Below, one piece after another: positions 56,546 through 63,749 of a stretch of 64,000 bases of DNA; the stretch's first letter is position 1, and the number at the start of each line of letters is the position of its first letter. Below the pieces are notes generated by a model. That model did no database searches and was not told where the DNA came from. It saw only the letters and a program-made list of their open reading frames with translations. The stretch is from a virus: positions 41,564-105,563 of the IMG/VR virus record IMGVR_UViG_3300021961_000042; one strand, written 5' to 3'. The position numbers and the translations under genes were made by a program.

Positions 56546-57192
56546 AATATTTTTATTTTTTATTAATACTACTTTTAACTTCTTGTATTGAAATAATAGA
56601 AGATTTAAAAATTAATTTAGATGGATCAGGGACTTTCAAGTATTCAGTAAACCTTAGTCAAAGTAAAACCAAAACCTCAGCAATACTTGCTCTTGATAGT
56701 TTGCATGGCGAAAAAGTTCCTAAAATCTCTGAAATAAAAGAAAAAATTAGTTTGTTTAAAAAAAAATTACAAGAACAAGAAGGTATAACAAATGTCATCA
56801 TCACCGAAGATTATGAAAACTATATTGTGAGAATTCAGTGCGATTTTAAAAATGTGGAATTATTAGAAAAAGGTTTAAAAAACACGGCATCAAAGATGTA
56901 CCAAACAAATGAATATAATTATGATTGGATATGTTATAAGGGAAAAACTTTAATTAGAAAAACACCCATATTTAATTTAGATGATATTAGAAAGTTTGGT
57001 GATAAAGATATTGATAAGTTAAAGACTGGTAATTATACTTCAATTACAAGGTTTGAAAGTAAAATAGATACATTTGAAAATATAAACTCAATTAGATCTA
57101 AAAGTAATATGGCACTTATGATTAAAGTAAGTCCTGATATGTTACTACTAAACCAAAACCTTTTAGATAATAAAATAACATTAAAAAAATGA
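56542..57192 (+). CDS. Putative lipoprotein
   Basis: Lipobox LLTSC, then INLDGSG. Confidence 0.65.
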   Translation: MKYFYFLLILLLTSCIEIIEDLKINLDGSGTFKYSVNLSQSKTKTSAILALDSLHGEKVPKISEIKEKISLFKKKLQEQEGITNVIITEDYENYIVRIQCDFKNVELLEKGLKNTASKMYQTNEYNYDWICYKGKTLIRKTPIFNLDDIRKFGDKDIDKLKTGNYTSITRFESKIDTFENINSIRSKSNMALMIKVSPDMLLLNQNLLDNKITLKK

Positions 57193-58037
57193 TAGAAACA
57201 GGAAAAATTATAAATGGTGATTGTGTTGAAGTGATGAAGACATTACCTGAAGGATGTATTGATTTAGTCGTAACTAGTCCACCATATGGTGTCGGTATTG
57301 ATTATGACGTACATGAGGATGATGTTGAATTTGAAGATTATAAAGAATTTGCAAAAAACTGGTTGTCTGAGACATATAGAGTTTTAAAAGATGATGGTAG
57401 AATCGCACTTAATATACCCTATGAAATAAACAGACAAAAAAAGGGTGGTAGAATTTTTTTTGTTTCTGAAATGTGGCAAATAATGAAAGATATTGGTTTT
57501 GGGTTCTTTGGTATTGTCGATTTAGAAGAGGATAGTCCACATAGAAGTAAAACAACTGCTTGGGGTTCATGGATGTCACCATCAAGTCCTTACATATATA
57601 ACCCAAAGGAGTGTGTAATTTTGGCCTATAAAAAACATCACATTAAAAAAGTTAAGGGTGAACCACAATGGAAAGGAACTCCGACAGATATTGAGCAGGA
57701 AGATGGGACGTTTAAGAAAAAAATGGTTTATGACGAAAAGGATAAGAAAGAGTTTATGGAACTTGTGTTTGGTCAATGGAATTATTTTGCAGATACAAAG
57801 TCTTTAACAAAGGCAACATTCTCAATGGATATTCCAACAAAGGCGATTAAGATATTGTCCTACAAGAACGATATAGTTTTAGACCCATTTGCTGGTAGTG
57901 GTACTAGTTTAGTTGCTGCAGAAGTATTAGGTAGGAGGTGGTTGGGAATAGAACTTTCACTAAACTATACTGAAGTTGCAAGAACAAGAGTAGAATATTT
58001 TAAAAAATTAGAAGAAGTTAAAGAAGACCAACAGTAA
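57189..58037 (+). CDS. DNA methyltransferase, beta class (probably N4C)
   Basis: TSPPY and DPFAGSGTS. Confidence 0.9.
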   Translation: MIETGKIINGDCVEVMKTLPEGCIDLVVTSPPYGVGIDYDVHEDDVEFEDYKEFAKNWLSETYRVLKDDGRIALNIPYEINRQKKGGRIFFVSEMWQIMKDIGFGFFGIVDLEEDSPHRSKTTAWGSWMSPSSPYIYNPKECVILAYKKHHIKKVKGEPQWKGTPTDIEQEDGTFKKKMVYDEKDKKEFMELVFGQWNYFADTKSLTKATFSMDIPTKAIKILSYKNDIVLDPFAGSGTSLVAAEVLGRRWLGIELSLNYTEVARTRVEYFKKLEEVKEDQQ

Positions 58038-58073: not shown

Positions 58074-59888
58074 ATGAAAAAACTACTTAAAGAATCCGGT
58101 ATAAGGGACATAAAACAAATTGCCAAAAGATATAAAAAGGCTAAAATTTATTTTCACCAAGACTTAGATGGTGTAACAACCGCTTTGGCTATGAAAAACT
58201 ACCTTGAACAAAATGGGATCAATGTAGTTGATGCTGAGGTTATACAATACGGTGCTAAAGAATTTGCTATTAAAAAACCTGAAGGTGAAGGTGACGTGAT
58301 GCCGGTATTGGTTGATTTTGCTCACGGAAAACCGATGTTTGTTATCCATACCGATCACCACGATAGTCAAGCCGGTGTTGAGGGAGATACTGCAACAAGT
58401 TTTAGACACGCAAGATCTAATGTCGAAACAATATCACAGATATTATCACCAAAAGAAATTTTTACCGCAGACGACATATTATTAATCTCAACAGTTGACT
58501 CAGCAAACTTTGTTGCAAATAATATAACACCAGAAATGGTTATGAACTACCTTTTCAAATATGATAAAAATGAGTCTTTGAAAAGAAATAAAATGTTAAT
58601 GGGGCTTGTTGTTAATAAATTACTTTTAGCATATAAAGGAAAACCAAATTTTTTAGAAGAAATTGTTTTAAATGCAAAACCATCCCTTTTAAGTATTCTT
58701 AATTTTATAAAAAAAGTGGCATTAGAAAAAGGGTACGCAACCCCTGAAATGATGACAAAAAATACTGAAGATTATGTTCAAAGTAGAAAAGAATCTGGAG
58801 TTGAAAGAACAGGTAGCGTATTATCTCAATACGGTTTTGGTTCGGCAACAAAACCAGGATCATATGATAGATACACACCATTTAGAAATAATCCTGATGC
58901 CGACTTCTTAGTTACAGGAATGCCTTTTGGTAGTGTTCAAGCATCTTGTAACCCATTCAAAGAAAGTAGATCACTCAAAGGTATAAATTTAGGTGAAATA
59001 AAGGATCAAGTTTTATTAGACTTCAAACCAGAGTTAGAAAAACAAATATTAACATTTAGAACAATAAAAAGAATTGCAGAAAAAGAAGCAACAAAAGAAT
59101 CTGTAGGATTCACCTCAAAAGATATGATGGCCCTTTATGGTTCAATGCCATCTTACGATCCAAACACACAATCAATAAATGGTTATGATTTTTTAGTTGC
59201 AAACTCAGGAGGACATAAATGTATTACTAATATTTCAGGAATTAATTTTATGTATAGTGGTTACGACAAACCATACACTAAAGATTTACCAAAAGAAGCT
59301 ATACCTATTGCTTTTTATGAAGGAGATAATAACTTTATTAAAGATATTAAACAAAAACTTTTAAGATTTAGAAAGTTATCTGAAAAACAAATACAGGCGG
59401 CAATTAGTGGAATGAAAAGAGAGGGGATCAATACAGACTCATTAATGAATGTAAAACAAGAAAGAGGTTTTTTAGATTTAGTAAAAGAAATGAAAGACAG
59501 GTTTGTTGATATTTTAAATCAAAAAATGAATTCAGAAAATGAAAGTATTAATGAAAGTTATGATAAAAAAGATATTGCAACATTATTAAAAAAACACGTT
59601 AAAAAAGAAAAAACATTAAATGAAAACGATTGGAATTATATATTAAAAAAAGTTAATGGTGTTATTGATAATAGAGGACAGTGGGAACATCCCGGAAAAT
59701 GTACAATGATTGAAAGTAATACTATTACCATGAAAAATGTTGATTACCCTTTAGTTGGAATAGACAATACAGGACAAATGAAATTAATGTTACCAAACAT
59801 GAATTATGAATTTCCCGGAGAAAAAGTATTTGAAATACCTTGCATGGGTAAATATAAAAATCTTGCAATAGAACTATTAAGAATATGA
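58074..59888 (+). CDS. DHH-family phosphoesterase-like protein with leader and appended C-terminal module
   Basis: HQDLDG, VDFA, TDHHD, SGGH. Confidence 0.7.
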   Translation: MKKLLKESGIRDIKQIAKRYKKAKIYFHQDLDGVTTALAMKNYLEQNGINVVDAEVIQYGAKEFAIKKPEGEGDVMPVLVDFAHGKPMFVIHTDHHDSQAGVEGDTATSFRHARSNVETISQILSPKEIFTADDILLISTVDSANFVANNITPEMVMNYLFKYDKNESLKRNKMLMGLVVNKLLLAYKGKPNFLEEIVLNAKPSLLSILNFIKKVALEKGYATPEMMTKNTEDYVQSRKESGVERTGSVLSQYGFGSATKPGSYDRYTPFRNNPDADFLVTGMPFGSVQASCNPFKESRSLKGINLGEIKDQVLLDFKPELEKQILTFRTIKRIAEKEATKESVGFTSKDMMALYGSMPSYDPNTQSINGYDFLVANSGGHKCITNISGINFMYSGYDKPYTKDLPKEAIPIAFYEGDNNFIKDIKQKLLRFRKLSEKQIQAAISGMKREGINTDSLMNVKQERGFLDLVKEMKDRFVDILNQKMNSENESINESYDKKDIATLLKKHVKKEKTLNENDWNYILKKVNGVIDNRGQWEHPGKCTMIESNTITMKNVDYPLVGIDNTGQMKLMLPNMNYEFPGEKVFEIPCMGKYKNLAIELLRI

Positions 59889-60376
59889 ATCTTTACGAGA
59901 ATATATTAAGAATCAATCAATTAATAAAAGAAAACTCTACTATTGAAAACTTTATACAAAAAGGAGAGTTAAATATTGTGCCAGGTGTTAACATTACATT
60001 AGTAAAGGAGAAAGATGAAATAATTGGAGAAACAAATTTAATTGATATGGATAATGCGTATTTGAACGATTACTACTTGAATAATTTTCTTAAAAATGAT
60101 TCTAATAACATGAATGAAAGTAATGGCGACATTGTTATAAATAATTCTAATACTTTATATGTTCATGATGTGAATGTTGATGAAAGTTTTAGAGGAATGG
60201 GTTATGGTAAAAAAGTTATGACTAAATGCCATGAAGTTGCAAAAAAAATGGGTTATGACAACACTTGTTTAATAGTACAAAAAGAAAACACACCGGCGGT
60301 TTCTTTATATGAAGGTTTAGGGTATCTAACAATCAAAGAAGACAATTTAAGAAAATTTATGTTGAAAAAATTATAA
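59885..60376 (+). CDS. GNAT acetyltransferase with leader
   Basis: VNVDESFRGMGYG, NTPAVSLYEGLGY; MNLYENILRINQLIKE. Confidence 0.8.
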   Translation: MNLYENILRINQLIKENSTIENFIQKGELNIVPGVNITLVKEKDEIIGETNLIDMDNAYLNDYYLNNFLKNDSNNMNESNGDIVINNSNTLYVHDVNVDESFRGMGYGKKVMTKCHEVAKKMGYDNTCLIVQKENTPAVSLYEGLGYLTIKEDNLRKFMLKKL

Positions 60377-60531
60377 AATAAAAGTTTTTTTAATTTTACA
60401 ATGTATTTATAAAATACCTCTGACAAAATTCATTATTTTTTAATAAAAACAGTTGACAGTTTAGAATAAATGTTTTAGATTTGTTAAACAATTAGGAAAC
60501 GTCCTAATAATAATTTGAAAAATTGAAAAAA

Positions 60532-60675
60532 ATGAGTGAAGATCAAGTAACAGTAAACGAAATTTACGCTTACGTTAATGACAAAGGTCAGAAAGTGTAT
60601 ACACCTAATCTAGAGTTTGCTAAGATTATGAGTGATAAATACGGAACCGATAAGGTGTACGTAGAAAAAAACTAA
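60532..60675 (+). CDS. 47-aa hypothetical protein (not in ORF track)
   Basis: MSEDQVTVNEIYAYVNDKGQKVYTPNLEFAKIMSDKYGTDKVYVEKN; A-rich start. Confidence 0.55.
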   Translation: MSEDQVTVNEIYAYVNDKGQKVYTPNLEFAKIMSDKYGTDKVYVEKN

Positions 60676-60730
60676 AAAAAAGTTCACAAGGTACTTGTCT
60701 AATTAAAAAAAAAGACTTAACTTTGTAAAA

Positions 60731-61700
60731 GATTCGAAACCACAGGAGATGAAAGATACTCGTTGTCGAATTAGAGAAAACGTTCTTTGAAAAACTAAAA
60801 CCGACAGAAATAGTCGTCACAATTATGAAAAGCGAATTAACACCTCCCTTTCTTTAAGTGTGAAACTAAATTAAGTCATTGGGCCGTGTATGGTCCATTA
60901 AAATAAACCACGAAAGTGGGATAAAGTGAACCTAACGTGTAATAGGTTTGCGTCTTGGTGAGTCTTCGGACTTGTTGAGGTCGAGTACACAAGCGGGATA
61001 CCGTTTAACCTTTAGTACCGAGGGCAACGCTGTAGGGAAAGTGGTTAGATGAACTGGCAATGTGGGTTGTCAGTTTGAGGTGGGAACACCAAGAGGAATA
61101 ACCCGTAGGAACGATGCAAAAAATAAGGTTATCCAACTTTATCATTGCGTCCTCCATTATGATAGGGTACTTAAAACCGAAAGGTATGTTCGTGTACAGG
61201 TGGTGCTGTTACCAACCCTAATGATTCCTTACCAAAGGAATTGTTTTGAAGTAGTCTTGAAATATGGAAATGGGGACATTTCACGGAGTAGTTGAGTATC
61301 GACTCGTTCAAAAGATGGGTTGGCTCGGGTGACGGACCACTACTTCGACAATCCACAACACAAATACTTTATGGAAAGTAATGATTCTATTATTAACTAC
61401 AGAAAGGAAAAGTGTCCGTCAGGTTTGGATGAAAGGTGACTACATAGTAATGAGCCGTTCATTGCACACAAGGATCCCAAGTCTGAGTGTAATTATCCGA
61501 AAAACCTTTAGTCCCGCAAGGACGAACTGGGGAGGCATCCTCGGAAAGAGTCAAGTAAGGTGAGAGTAATCCAAACCTCAAGGAGTGATTCACCTAAATA
61601 ATCGTCACTGAGGAATACTTCTCAAAAGGAAGTGGATAAGAGTAGAATAAATAATGACTCTAAAGGTTCTCAATAACAGGTGTAATCTCAGCCTTTTTTT
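60731..61700 (+). ncRNA. Large structured noncoding RNA, GOLLD-like candidate
   Basis: Promoter CTTG-N20-TAACTTTG (60694-60725); ~1 kb without a credible ORF; visibly G+C-richer; GNRA/UUCG hairpins and long-range helices; ends in T tract. Confidence 0.75.
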
Positions 61701-61729
61701 AAAACATGATTACTGGTAAAAAAAATTGA

Positions 61730-61761
61730 ATGGATAGTAAAAAATTATTATCCATTTTTTT
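61730..61761 (+). terminator. Intrinsic terminator
   Basis: ATGGATAGTAA/TTATTATCCAT stem plus T tract. Confidence 0.65.
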
Positions 61762-61793
61762 GTGCATTAAAATTTTTTGTATATCTTTGTATC

Positions 61794-62595: not shown

Positions 62596-62979
62596 ATGAA
62601 AATACAGTTAACGGAATCTGATTTAGTAATACTAATTAAAAAAATTATTTCTGAAACAAAAAACCAAACAATTTATGAGGATATGTATGGTTCCGTTGAG
62701 GATATTAATTTACTTAATGAGGCAGAATACCAAGGTAGAAAAGTACAACTTGGTAAAATAATGCAGGGAGACATTAAAAAATTTAAAGTATATGTAAAAA
62801 ATGACAAAGGAAAGGTTGTTAAAGTAAACTTTGGTTTTGGTGGTAAATCTGCTAAAGGTAAAAGAATGACAATCAAAAAAAACAACCCTGAAAGAAGAAA
62901 GTCATTTAGAGCAAGACATAATTGTGATAACCCTGGCCCAAGATGGAAACCAAGATATTGGGCTTGTAGAACATGGTAA
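62596..62979 (+). CDS. Leader-bearing basic protein
   Basis: MKIQLTESDLVILIKKIISE; VNFG...RRKSFRARHNCD...RYWAC. Confidence 0.7.
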   Translation: MKIQLTESDLVILIKKIISETKNQTIYEDMYGSVEDINLLNEAEYQGRKVQLGKIMQGDIKKFKVYVKNDKGKVVKVNFGFGGKSAKGKRMTIKKNNPERRKSFRARHNCDNPGPRWKPRYWACRTW

Positions 62980-63543: not shown

Positions 63544-63617
63544 GGTCCCGTAGCTCAGCTGGATAGAGCAACTGCCTTCTAAGCAGTAGGTCAATGGTTC
63601 GAATCCATTCGGGATCA
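63544..63617 (+). tRNA. tRNA-Arg(UCU)
   Basis: GGTCCCG/CGGGATC acceptor, GCTC/GAGC D arm, ACTGC-CTTCTAA-GCAGT anticodon arm, AATGG-TTCGAAT-CCATT T arm; CCA not encoded. Confidence 0.95.
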
Positions 63618-63749
63618 CAAATAAATTAACATGGAAGACATTCACCAACTACTACATGAAGAATTTATAAACAGCGAGGAGTTTATAAAATATCTTAAAG
63701 AACTTAACGAGTATTCAGAAAATTATGTATCTTTGTAAAAATAAAACAT

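What the first reader, a model, noticed from the sequence alone, without database searches (positions are those of the whole stretch)
60694..61700. ~950-nt ornate noncoding RNA (GOLLD-like or a new class)
Seen: own promoter and T-tract end; tetraloop hairpins CCAC-GAAA-GTGG (60908), AGTC-TTCG-GACT (60961), GGTG-GGAA-CACC (61079), ACC-GAAA-GGT (61176), GAAATG-GGGA-CATTTC (61267); long-range helices GAAGTAGT/ACTACTTC (61248/61339) and AGGTTTGGAT/ATCCAAACCT (61421/61569); a tRNA 1.9 kb downstream. Known: GOLLD and ROOL are giant phage-associated RNAs of unknown function, often near tRNAs, that form RNA-only multimeric cages. Inference: size and context fit GOLLD best, but the family call is unverified.
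Basis: partly seen in the sequence, partly recalled or inferred. Interest (0 to 1): 0.8.

Follow-up and report, generated by a model that had tools for sequence, protein, structure and literature searches.

The report
GOLLD cage RNA in large phage
The flagged stretch is a full-length copy of GOLLD, a known giant phage RNA that builds RNA-only cages and has no known job. Two things conserved beside it, a ribosomal-RNA-style leader signal and a tiny protein gene, may help in testing what it does.

Summary
Rfam's GOLLD model (RF02032) matches window 61284-61694 end to end at 323 bits against a threshold of 150. That model covers only the 3' half. The 5' half (about 60878-61283) is conserved in 20 distinct IMG/VR relatives at 71-91% identity, with strong covariation: 109 pairs, 97% paired, 56 with double changes. 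By eye it is the same 5' domain as GOLLD env-38, whose 14-mer cage structure is solved.

The seventh (61248/61339) is mispaired: ACTACTTC pairs with 61285-61292 instead. The host is probably a Bacteroidota bacterium, and the phage is large (105-kb record, about 35% complete).

Two extras were found in every leader examined. One is a Bacteroidota-type promoter. The other is an invariant GTTCTTTGA motif matching the boxA core of Flavobacteriia ribosomal RNA operons.

A 47-residue protein gene lies directly upstream. In all 21 metagenome loci found through that protein alone and long enough to judge, GOLLD follows it, though shared ancestry could explain this. The scan has met GOLLD before on other DNA.

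This is a new member of a known family, and its function is still unknown.

The parts
60453..60483 (+). Bacteroidota-type promoter-like element (TTGACA...TAGATTTG) ahead of the small ORF
   Evidence: Matches TTG-N18-21-TAnnTTTG. It also scores 10/12 as a sigma-70-like site. Its function is inferred.
60532..60675 (+). SP47: 47-aa protein gene of unknown function, directly upstream of GOLLD
   Evidence: No Pfam or PHROG family. There are 284 hypothetical-protein clusters in metagenomes. Third-codon-position changes are about twice those at positions 1 and 2. It lies upstream of GOLLD in 13 of 20 relatives. In all 21 long-enough loci found through the protein alone, GOLLD follows it.
60695..60725 (+). 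GOLLD promoter: -33 TTG (60695-60697) and -7 TAACTTTG (60718-60725). Predicted start is near 60731.
   Evidence: The same element is present 108-189 nt upstream of the RNA core in 20/20 IMG/VR relatives and 28/29 metagenome leaders, although the leader in between varies. The start site is inferred.
60731..60772 (+). Leader hairpin (GAUUCGA ... UCGAAUU)
   Evidence: Fold. Relatives carry a shorter hairpin (TCGGA-AACG-TCCGA) at the same place.
60781..60793 (+). boxA-like leader motif CGTTCTTTGAAAA (invariant core GTTCTTTGA)
   Evidence: The core is present in 20/20 and 29/29 leaders. The same core occurs in the 16S-23S spacers of two Flavobacteriia genomes, and a close variant (GTTCTTTACA) in one 16S leader. 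It also occurs in the mycoplasma rRNA spacer primer GTTCTTTGAAAACTGAAT (PMC4312986). Nus factor binding was not tested.
60878..61283 (+). GOLLD 5' domain (the cap of the cage in env-38)
   Evidence: 71-91% identical in 20 unique relatives. 109 pairs in 20 helices, 97.4% paired against 86.0% shuffled and 35-42% slid, with 56 pairs showing double changes. It aligns by eye with env-38 nucleotides 1-420.
60908..60919 (+). Hairpin with invariant GAAA loop (60912-60915). Counterpart of the env-38 loop that makes bridge B1.
   Evidence: covarying stem. (env-38 A34/A35 A-minor contact). Mapped by motif, so inferred.
61020..61028 (+). GAGGGCAAC motif. Counterpart of the env-38 G140-142/A145/C146 'daisy chain' bridge B2.
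   Evidence: Nearly invariant in A1. env-38 table and sequence. Inferred by motif.
61079..61090 (+). Hairpin with invariant GGAA loop. Counterpart of env-38 bridge B3 (A203/A204).
   Evidence: All four stem pairs covary.. Inferred by motif.
61176..61185 (+). ACC-GAAA-GGT. Probable counterpart of env-38 L11a, the conserved GAAA loop facing the inner circle.
   Evidence: Invariant in 21 sequences. env-38 has GGGGAAACCCC at this place. Paper text.
61267..61282 (+). Last 5'-domain hairpin, loop GGGA. Counterpart of the env-38 kissing loop B4, whose partner UCC lies at 61132-61134.
   Evidence: The stem covaries. GGGA and UCC are invariant. env-38 pairs GGGAU with AUCCC. Only about 3 pairs are possible here.
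61284..61694 (+). GOLLD 3' domain, the Rfam RF02032 match
   Evidence: 323.4 bits, model positions 1-416, E 7.6e-92. The same hit was found in the whole record.
61348..61410 (+). A/U-rich variable linker (disordered and inside the cage in env-38). It holds no tRNA here.
   Evidence: Poorly aligned columns 630-675 of A1. Low posterior probabilities in the Rfam alignment. Paper text. ARAGORN finds no tRNA there.
61309..61314 (+). CAAAAG loop with invariant As. Counterpart of env-38 bridge B6.
   Evidence: A466-A469 are invariant and flanked by a strongly covarying stem. Supplement text and table.
61515..61520 (+). Loop CGCAAG with the self-complementary GC (61516-61517). Counterpart of the symmetric kissing bridge B8.
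   Evidence: GC becomes AU, which is also self-complementary, in six relatives of the L006 group (columns 788-789). The paper reports a GC/CG switch.
61694..61700 (+). U-tract directly after the terminal GGUGUAAUCUCAGCC hairpin
   Evidence: A T-rich stretch follows the RNA in all relatives. The env-38 construct ends at the same position.
61728..61764 (+). Intrinsic terminator: 13-bp hairpin plus U7
   Evidence: Several relatives have a comparable hairpin within about 70 nt downstream.
63544..63618 (+). tRNA-Arg(TCT), the only tRNA in the 105.5-kb record

Best explanation
This is a GOLLD RNA gene of a large, uncultured phage that most likely infects a Bacteroidota host.

Shown:
- The 3' half is a full-length, high-scoring match to the GOLLD family model.
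- The 5' half is a conserved domain rich in covariation, of the same type as in GOLLD env-38.
- The conserved RNA runs from about 60878 to 61694 (about 817 nt), the limits of the env-38 construct used for cryo-EM.

Inferred:
- It is transcribed from its own Bacteroidota-type promoter, starting near 60731.
- Transcription passes through a leader of about 145 nt holding a hairpin and a boxA-like GTTCTTTGA motif. As in ribosomal RNA operons, this motif would recruit NusB/NusE and make RNA polymerase processive, helping a long structured RNA to be made in quantity.
- Transcription stops at the U-tract (61694-61700) or at the hairpin terminator (61728-61764).
- By homology with env-38, the RNA folds into two domains and self-assembles into a closed 14-mer cage. 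The 5' domains form the caps and the 3' domains form the rings. The loops that carry the inter-chain bridges in env-38 are present here.

What the cage does is not known for any GOLLD. My best guess is a container or scaffold made during lytic growth that holds or sequesters RNA or translation components. My odds: about 0.97 that it is a GOLLD member, about 0.7 that it forms a cage, about 0.45 that the leader motif acts as boxA, and at most 0.3 for any particular cellular role.
For: Family: RF02032 scores 323.4 bits against a gathering score of 150, over model positions 1-416.

Structure: RNAalifold gives 199 pairs, 97 with compensatory changes. The 5' domain is 97.4% paired with 56 double-change pairs; none of 500 shuffles reaches this and slid controls give 35-42%.

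Same type as the solved RNA: env-38 starts ATGGCCGCTATGGTCGTCAAATAAATACGAAAGTAGGATAAAGTG and ends GGTGTATTCTCAGCCT. These match the window at 60878 and at 61679-61694.

Contact motifs retained: GAAA (B1), GAGGG.AAC (B2), GGAA (B3), GGGA/UCC (B4), CAAAAG (B6), GC in CGCAAG (B8, which switches to AU in one clade), GC in GGCAU (B9).

Context: IMG/VR virus record, neighbours of phage type, a tRNA 1.85 kb downstream. Relatives have tRNA-Met directly after GOLLD, or tRNA islands nearby.

Promoter and leader: conserved in 20/20 relatives and 28-29/29 metagenome leaders. GTTCTTTGA occurs in Flavobacteriia rrn spacers, and a close variant in one 16S leader.
Against: - There is no expression data.
- Cage formation rests on homology to one solved member. 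I could not align env-38 formally; I compared it by eye with a sequence printed from a PDF whose numbering drifts by 1-4 nt.
- The B4 kissing pair would be shorter here, about 3 pairs instead of 5.
- The boxA-like motif shares only its 9-nt core with the Flavobacteriia rrn motif (GTTCTTTGACATATTG). Two Flavobacterium 16S leaders have a different sequence at that place.
- No leader-trailer helix like that of rRNA operons is present.
- The promoter pattern is only weakly enriched genome-wide: 13 found against 7.7 +/- 2.7 expected.
- Only one tRNA is nearby.
Confidence: 0.88

Rival explanations
1. The RNA works together with the 47-aa protein encoded directly upstream (SP47). The protein would be a dedicated partner, such as a cargo, an assembly or opening factor of the cage, or a regulator of the GOLLD promoter. 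On this reading the unit is a protein-RNA module and not an RNA-only device.
For: - SP47 homologues lie on the same strand 94-200 nt before GOLLD in 13 of 20 unique IMG/VR relatives.
- GOLLD follows in all 21 metagenome loci that were found through the protein alone and have at least 1100 nt downstream. It begins in 36 of 38 loci with at least 150 nt downstream.
- The two extra viral loci found through the protein also carry GOLLD.
- The gene is under purifying selection.
- No terminator separates it from GOLLD.
- The other neighbours of the window are shared only with its closest relatives.
Against: - The flanks of these loci are partly syntenic: three upstream groups of 26, 11 and 2, and six downstream groups. 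The linkage may therefore be inherited gene order in one phage lineage.
- 7 of 20 close GOLLD relatives lack the protein, and nothing suggests that env-38 or the Lactobacillales GOLLDs have it.
- env-38 assembles without any protein.
- The predicted beta-beta-alpha-beta fold (pLDDT 78.6) matches nothing informative.
Confidence: 0.2
2. GOLLD here is not a container. It acts directly on the host's translation or defence machinery, for example by binding ribosomes or by soaking up an RNA-binding host factor. The multimer would then serve only to raise valency and stability.
For: The cryo-EM paper cites pull-downs in which ribosomes bind GOLLD, and notes that the cage interior is empty apart from a disordered linker. 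The rRNA-like leader motif found here would fit an RNA made in ribosome-like amounts.
Against: Nothing in this window speaks directly for it. No ribosomal-protein or defence gene lies next to the RNA. The idea is not exclusive of the cage model.
Confidence: 0.25
3. The region is a new class of large RNA, or another known class (ROOL, group I or II intron, RNase P, tmRNA), that merely resembles GOLLD.
For: Only that the 5' 400 nt have no Rfam model, so they give no hit of their own.
Against: The GOLLD model is matched end to end at twice its threshold. No other family reaches its gathering score in the 64-kb window except one tRNA. The 5' part aligns with the 5' domain of GOLLD env-38.
Confidence: 0.01
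4. The stretch is protein-coding or a functionless spacer, and the hairpins are chance.
For: Mechanical ORFs of 42-77 aa overlap it on both strands.
Against: 56 (5' domain) to 97 (whole RNA) base pairs keep pairing through changes on both sides. Conservation is 71-91% at the nucleotide level with indels that are not multiples of three. G+C is raised by about 15 points. None of this fits coding or neutral sequence.
Confidence: 0.01

Closest known systems
GOLLD RNA env-38 (JCVI_SCAF_1096627009515/1239-410), cryo-EM 14-mer cage, Kretsch et al. 2025 (PMC12286853)
   Same: - Same family and same 5'-domain type.
- Same start and end points and nearly the same length (817 against 833 nt).
- Same order of elements: GAAA hairpin, variable arm, GAGGG.AAC, GGAA hairpin, GAAA loop, GGGA hairpin, CAAAAG hairpin, A/U linker, long-range helix, CGCAAG and GGCAU loops, terminal GGUGUA(A/U)UCUCAGCC.
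   Different: - Roughly a third of positions differ by eye.
- The arm at 60950-60990 ends in a UUCG hairpin here.
- The L11a region is a plain CCGAAAGG, where env-38 has a longer GGGGAAACCCC hairpin.
- The B4 kissing pair is shorter.
- env-38 comes from a marine sample next to tRNA-Met. This copy has five small ORFs before the nearest tRNA.
- Assembly of this copy is untested.
GOLLD family as in Rfam RF02032 (Weinberg et al. 2009; Lactobacillales prophages and lake metagenomes)
   Same: Full match to the conserved 3' domain, phage context, size over 800 nt, variable 5' domain and linker.
   Different: The Rfam model does not cover the 5' domain. This clade has Bacteroidota-type promoters rather than a Firmicutes setting. 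I found no paper holding both GOLLD and boxA or antitermination, nor any mention of an upstream small protein.
ROOL RNA (octameric phage RNA cage)
   Same: Large phage RNA near tRNAs that forms an RNA-only cage, with unknown function.
   Different: Unrelated sequence and fold. There is no ROOL match at threshold in the window.
Ribosomal RNA operon leaders with boxB-boxA antitermination signals (rrnTAC; PMC10250234)
   Same: Strong promoter (two in tandem in 11 of 20 relatives), then a hairpin, then a GTTCTTTGA motif identical to the core found in Flavobacteriia 16S-23S spacers, ahead of a long structured RNA.
   Different: The motif diverges after 9 nt. No boxC and no leader-trailer processing helix were found. 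Nus factor binding is untested.

Membership tests
GOLLD RNA (Rfam RF02032) | Covariance-model score above the curated gathering score over the conserved 3' domain | tested here: met
   323.4 bits against 150, model 1-416 of 416, E 7.6e-92. Repeated on the whole record.
GOLLD RNA (Rfam RF02032) | 3'-domain helices, including the long-range helix, kept by compensatory changes | tested here: met
   Helix 61421-30/61569-78 has 8 of 10 pairs with double changes. The first helix, 61285-92/61339-46, is 99.4% paired with 10 compensatory cells.
GOLLD RNA (Rfam RF02032) | Two-domain RNA of about 800 nt or more: structured 5' domain, variable linker, conserved 3' domain | tested here: met
   Conserved core 60878-61694 (817 nt). 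The 5' domain has 109 covariation-supported pairs. The A/U-rich unalignable linker is at about 61348-61410.
GOLLD RNA (Rfam RF02032) | 5' domain homologous to that of the structurally solved member (env-38) | tested here: met
   Motif-by-motif agreement with the printed env-38 sequence from first to last nucleotide. This was a comparison by eye, not a computed alignment, because the sequence could not be loaded.
GOLLD RNA (Rfam RF02032) | Phage or prophage location, often near tRNA genes | tested here: met
   IMG/VR virus record. tRNA-Arg lies 1.85 kb downstream. Relatives have tRNA-Met right after GOLLD, or tRNA islands.
GOLLD RNA (Rfam RF02032) | Loops that make the inter-chain bridges of the 14-mer are conserved | tested here: met
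   Counterparts of B1, B2, B3, B6, B8 and B9 are present and invariant in 21 sequences, apart from a self-complementary GC-to-AU switch at B8. B4 is only partly kept. B5, B7 and B10 were not mapped.
GOLLD RNA (Rfam RF02032) | Self-assembly into a D7 14-mer cage | not testable with these tools
   Needs in-vitro transcription plus mass photometry or cryo-EM.
GOLLD RNA (Rfam RF02032) | Expressed as a stable RNA, rising during lytic growth | not testable with these tools
ROOL, group I/II introns, RNase P, tmRNA (Rfam) | Covariance-model score at or above the gathering score | tested here: not met
   Only GOLLD and one tRNA pass threshold in the 64-kb window.
rrn-type boxA antitermination leader | boxA consensus shortly after the promoter, preceded by a hairpin | tested here: inconclusive
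   GTTCTTTGA is invariant in 49 of 49 leaders, about 25-50 nt after the predicted start and behind a hairpin. The same 9-mer occurs in Flavobacteriia rrn spacers, and a close variant in one 16S leader. The motif differs beyond the core, and two Flavobacterium leaders lack it.
rrn-type boxA antitermination leader | NusB/NusE binding and terminator read-through | not testable with these tools
   Biochemical or genetic assay needed.
rrn-type boxA antitermination leader | Leader-trailer helix flanking the mature RNA (RNase III processing stem) | tested here: not met
   Leader-trailer duplex energies are no better than with shuffled trailers in 17 loci (z from -1.0 to +2.1).

The most novel reading that the evidence does not exclude
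In this clade of Bacteroidota phages, GOLLD is made like a ribosomal RNA. Strong, often tandem promoters and a boxA-type antitermination leader drive it, and it works with a dedicated 47-residue protein encoded just upstream. That protein would be the first protein partner (cargo, assembly factor or gatekeeper) of an RNA cage.
Probability: 0.15. Interest if true: 0.7.

Novelty: new member of a known kind. Interest (0 to 1): 0.33.

Why it matters
GOLLD is one of the largest bacterial or phage non-coding RNAs. It is now known to build a 14-mer RNA-only cage, yet nobody knows what it is for.

This copy adds no new kind of object, and the scan has met GOLLD before on other DNA. It does show three useful things:
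- The structurally solved env-38 type is widespread in large freshwater and marine phages that carry Bacteroidota-style promoters.
- It gives a covariation-backed secondary structure for the 5' domain, which Rfam does not model.
- It points to two conserved neighbours that can be tested at the bench: an rRNA-like leader signal, bearing on how such an RNA is made and folded, and a tiny protein that always precedes GOLLD wherever it occurs, a possible partner.

Either neighbour, if confirmed, would be a first functional handle on this RNA class.

Tried and rejected
- **Neighbourhoods of distant SP47 homologues.** I used the search for related loci instead. The 12-sequence alignment was too diverse for it.
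- **Close relatives among deposited phages.** Only a 148-nt, 70% match in one 635-kb uncultured phage.
- **Prophage copies in GTDB genomes.** About 100 stretches matched the exact 16-mer of the 3' end, but none of the fetched loci resembles GOLLD by blastn. These are chance matches.
- **Host or relatives through the SbcC-like protein.** Only 22-26% identity to uncultured huge phages, a Microcystis phage and Bacillus phages, which is uninformative. PHROGs names almost nothing in the window.
- **Leader-trailer processing helix as in rRNA operons.** Not found.
- **Partner of the L20 loop (bridge B7) by column scanning.** Uninformative, because C/U changes pair with any invariant G.
- **SP47 fold.** No significant structural match: Foldseek best E 1.5, VIA-align best Z 3.7. 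No Pfam or PHROG family.
- **Genome-wide enrichment of the Bacteroidota promoter pattern.** Weak: 13 against 7.7 +/- 2.7. The promoter call rests on conservation, not on enrichment.
- **Literature.** No paper in the library holds both GOLLD and boxA or antitermination.
- **Formal alignment to env-38.** The comparison was by eye.
Full report
**What is there.** The window is the last 64 kb of a 105,563-bp IMG/VR virus record that CheckV rates about 35% complete, so the phage is large. The genome has about 30% G+C. Over about 60850-61700 the G+C rises to 40-46%, and no ORF longer than 77 codons crosses the stretch. A scan of the whole window against Rfam 15 at curated thresholds gives two hits only. 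One is GOLLD (RF02032) at 61284-61694 on the plus strand: 323.4 bits against a gathering score of 150, E 7.6e-92, model positions 1-416 of 416. The other is a tRNA at 63544-63617. ARAGORN calls this tRNA Arg(TCT), and it is the only tRNA of the whole record. No ROOL, intron, RNase P or tmRNA model reaches threshold.

**The half that Rfam does not model.** The Rfam model covers only the conserved 3' domain. I collected IMG/VR contigs sharing the 3'-terminal 16-mer. Of these, 34 loci (20 distinct sequences) align with the window from about 60861 to 61700 at 71-91% identity. On this 21-sequence alignment (A1), RNAalifold predicts 199 pairs, and 97 of them keep pairing through changes on both sides. 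For the 5' domain alone (109 pairs, 20 helices):
- 97.4% of cells are paired, against 86.0% in shuffles and 35-42% when partners are slid.
- 56 pairs show double changes, against 32.9 expected.
- None of 500 shuffles reaches any of the measures.

The supplement of Kretsch et al. 2025 (PMC12286853) prints the GOLLD env-38 sequence used for cryo-EM. It begins ATGGCCGCTATGGTCGTCAAATAAATACGAAAGTAGGATAAAGTG and ends GGTGTATTCTCAGCCT. These correspond to the window at 60878 and at 61679-61694, and the motifs in between follow in the same order. The window's RNA is therefore a full-length homologue of the solved molecule (817 against 833 nt), with the same 5'-domain type.

All seven elements are at the stated coordinates. 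Five are supported by covariation and one is invariant; details are in the observation check. The pairing GAAGTAGT (61248) with ACTACTTC (61339) is not supported: 85.7% paired, no compensatory change, and one pair broken in 13 of 21 sequences. ACTACTTC pairs with GGAGTAGT at 61285-61292: 99.4% paired, 10 compensatory cells, none of 500 shuffles as good. That is the first helix of the Rfam model. Part of GAAGTAGT pairs instead with ACUU at about 61170.

**Link to the cage structure.** In env-38 the 5' domain (1-420) forms the cap and the 3' domain (421-833) the ring of each half of a D7 14-mer. A disordered linker lies inside.
- B1: the GAAA loop at 60912-60915, an A-minor contact from the 5' domain to the 3' domain of a neighbouring chain.
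- B2: GAGGGCAAC at 61020-61028.
- B3: the GGAA loop at 61083-61086.
- L11a: the GAAA at 61179-61182, the conserved loop facing the inner circle.
- B4: the GGGA loop at 61273-61276 with UCC at 61132-61134, a kissing loop. It is shorter here than in env-38.
- B6: CAAAAG at 61309-61314.
- B8: the GC of CGCAAG at 61516-61517.
- B9: the GC of GGCAU at 61535-61536.

All are invariant in A1, with one exception. In six relatives the B8 dinucleotide is AU, which is again self-complementary. This fits the symmetric kissing contact for which the paper reported a GC/CG switch. These mappings go by motif and approximate position, because the numbering of the printed sequence drifts by 1-4 nt. They are inference. 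B5, B7 and B10 were not mapped.

**Transcription unit.** Upstream of the conserved core, the relatives differ in sequence and length but share two elements. The first is TTG-N18-21-TAnnTTTG, the -33/-7 promoter type of Bacteroidota (established knowledge). It is present in 20 of 20 IMG/VR relatives and 28 of 29 distinct metagenome leaders, and 11 of the 20 have two in tandem. In the window it lies at 60695-60725. The second is an invariant GTTCTTTGA, found in 20 of 20 and 29 of 29 leaders. It lies 49-100 nt before the core and just after a hairpin; in the window it is CGTTCTTTGAAAA at 60781-60793.

The same 9-mer occurs as AAGTTCTTTGACATATTG in the 16S-23S spacers of two Flavobacteriia genomes. 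A close variant, AAGTTCTTTACATATTG, lies in the 16S leader of one of them. These are the two places where rRNA operons carry boxA (PMC10250234). GTTCTTTGAAAACTGAAT is also the conserved mycoplasma spacer primer (PMC4312986).

The leader therefore looks like an rrn-type antitermination leader. The reading stays open for three reasons. The motif diverges after the core. Two Flavobacterium 16S leaders carry a different sequence. No leader-trailer helix exists.

At the 3' end the RNA runs straight into seven T residues (61694-61700). A 13-bp hairpin plus U7 follows at 61728-61764. No expression data could be obtained.

**A small protein that travels with GOLLD.** The 47-codon ORF at 60532-60675 ends 20 nt before the GOLLD promoter. 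It has no Pfam or PHROG family. Homologues lie at the same place in 13 of the 20 distinct relatives, whereas the window's other neighbours are shared only with its closest relatives. The family has at least 284 clusters in metagenomes, all unnamed. Third-codon positions change about twice as often as first and second, so it is a real gene.

I then searched metagenome contigs with the protein alone and obtained 43 loci. All 21 with at least 1100 nt downstream carry a near-full-length GOLLD on the same strand, 94-200 nt after the ORF. Of 38 loci with at least 150 nt downstream, 36 show its beginning.

There are caveats. The flanks of these loci fall into only a few syntenic groups, so the linkage may be inherited gene order. 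Seven close GOLLD relatives lack the gene. env-38 assembles without protein. The AlphaFold model (beta-beta-alpha-beta, pLDDT 78.6) matches no known fold. I give a functional partnership about 0.2.

**Context and host.** The neighbours are:
- an N6/N4 DNA methylase (57189-58037);
- a 604-aa protein of unknown function;
- a GNAT acetyltransferase (59885-60376);
- downstream, five small ORFs of unknown function and then the tRNA.

The promoter type and the rrn-like motif point to a Bacteroidota host. Protein searches gave no useful cultured relative. In relatives, tRNA-Met follows GOLLD directly, or tRNA islands lie within a few kb, which is the usual GOLLD setting.

**Verdict.** This is a new member of a known family, and the scan has met GOLLD before on other DNA. 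It belongs to the very subtype whose cage structure is solved. Its function remains unknown. My working model is an abundantly made, self-assembling RNA cage used during lytic growth. The leader signal and the upstream small protein are the parts worth a bench test.

Noticed in passing
window 60532-60675 (+); relatives e.g. L020:4109-4249, L007:2857-3009(-), L182-L223: A 47-58-aa protein family with no Pfam or PHROG match (conserved Y-x-Y, G, T-P-N, F-A, Y-G, V-Y-V-E-K) lies directly upstream of GOLLD wherever it was found. This includes 21 of 21 long-enough metagenome loci found through the protein alone. The flanks are partly syntenic, so the link may be ancestral gene order.
   Followed up: yes
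window 60781-60793; L002-L064 and L182-L223 leaders: The invariant GTTCTTTGA in all 49 GOLLD leaders examined is identical to the core of a motif in Flavobacteriia 16S-23S spacers, and a close variant (GTTCTTTACA) lies in one 16S leader. 11 of 20 relatives have two tandem promoters, as rRNA operons do.
   Followed up: partly
L006:3273-4100 (-), likewise L036, L043, L025: In GOLLD relatives that lack the small protein, the 700-1500 nt upstream of GOLLD hold no ORF of 35 codons or more on that strand and no ARAGORN tRNA. This may be a further non-coding RNA region; other agents of this scan reported tRNA-like arrays leading into GOLLD.
   Followed up: no
L006:362-778 (+), L017:3111-3521 (-), L013:2092-2294 (+): Phage contigs fetched with the 16-mer carry tmRNA genes (Rfam 78.6 and 104.4 bits) and a group I intron (65.7 bits). 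L019 has a run of more than 25 tRNA genes around a divergent GOLLD (185.9 bits), with one tRNA inside the GOLLD match.
   Followed up: no
window 61248-61255 versus 61285-61292: GAAGTAGT and GGAGTAGT are near-duplicates 37 nt apart, and both can pair with ACTACTTC at 61339. Only the second pairing covaries. The first is conserved in sequence and might compete during folding.
   Followed up: partly
window 62596-62979 (+): The 127-aa protein has a weak, sub-threshold Pfam match to the SidE mono-ADP-ribosyltransferase domain (E 8.6e-4, 18.8 bits against a cut-off of 27), and a PHROG of unknown function.
   Followed up: no
window 58074-59888 (+): The 604-aa protein has no PHROG match and only a faint DHH phosphoesterase N-terminal match (E 1.8e-3). 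It is conserved at 64% identity in the closest relative (L020).
   Followed up: no
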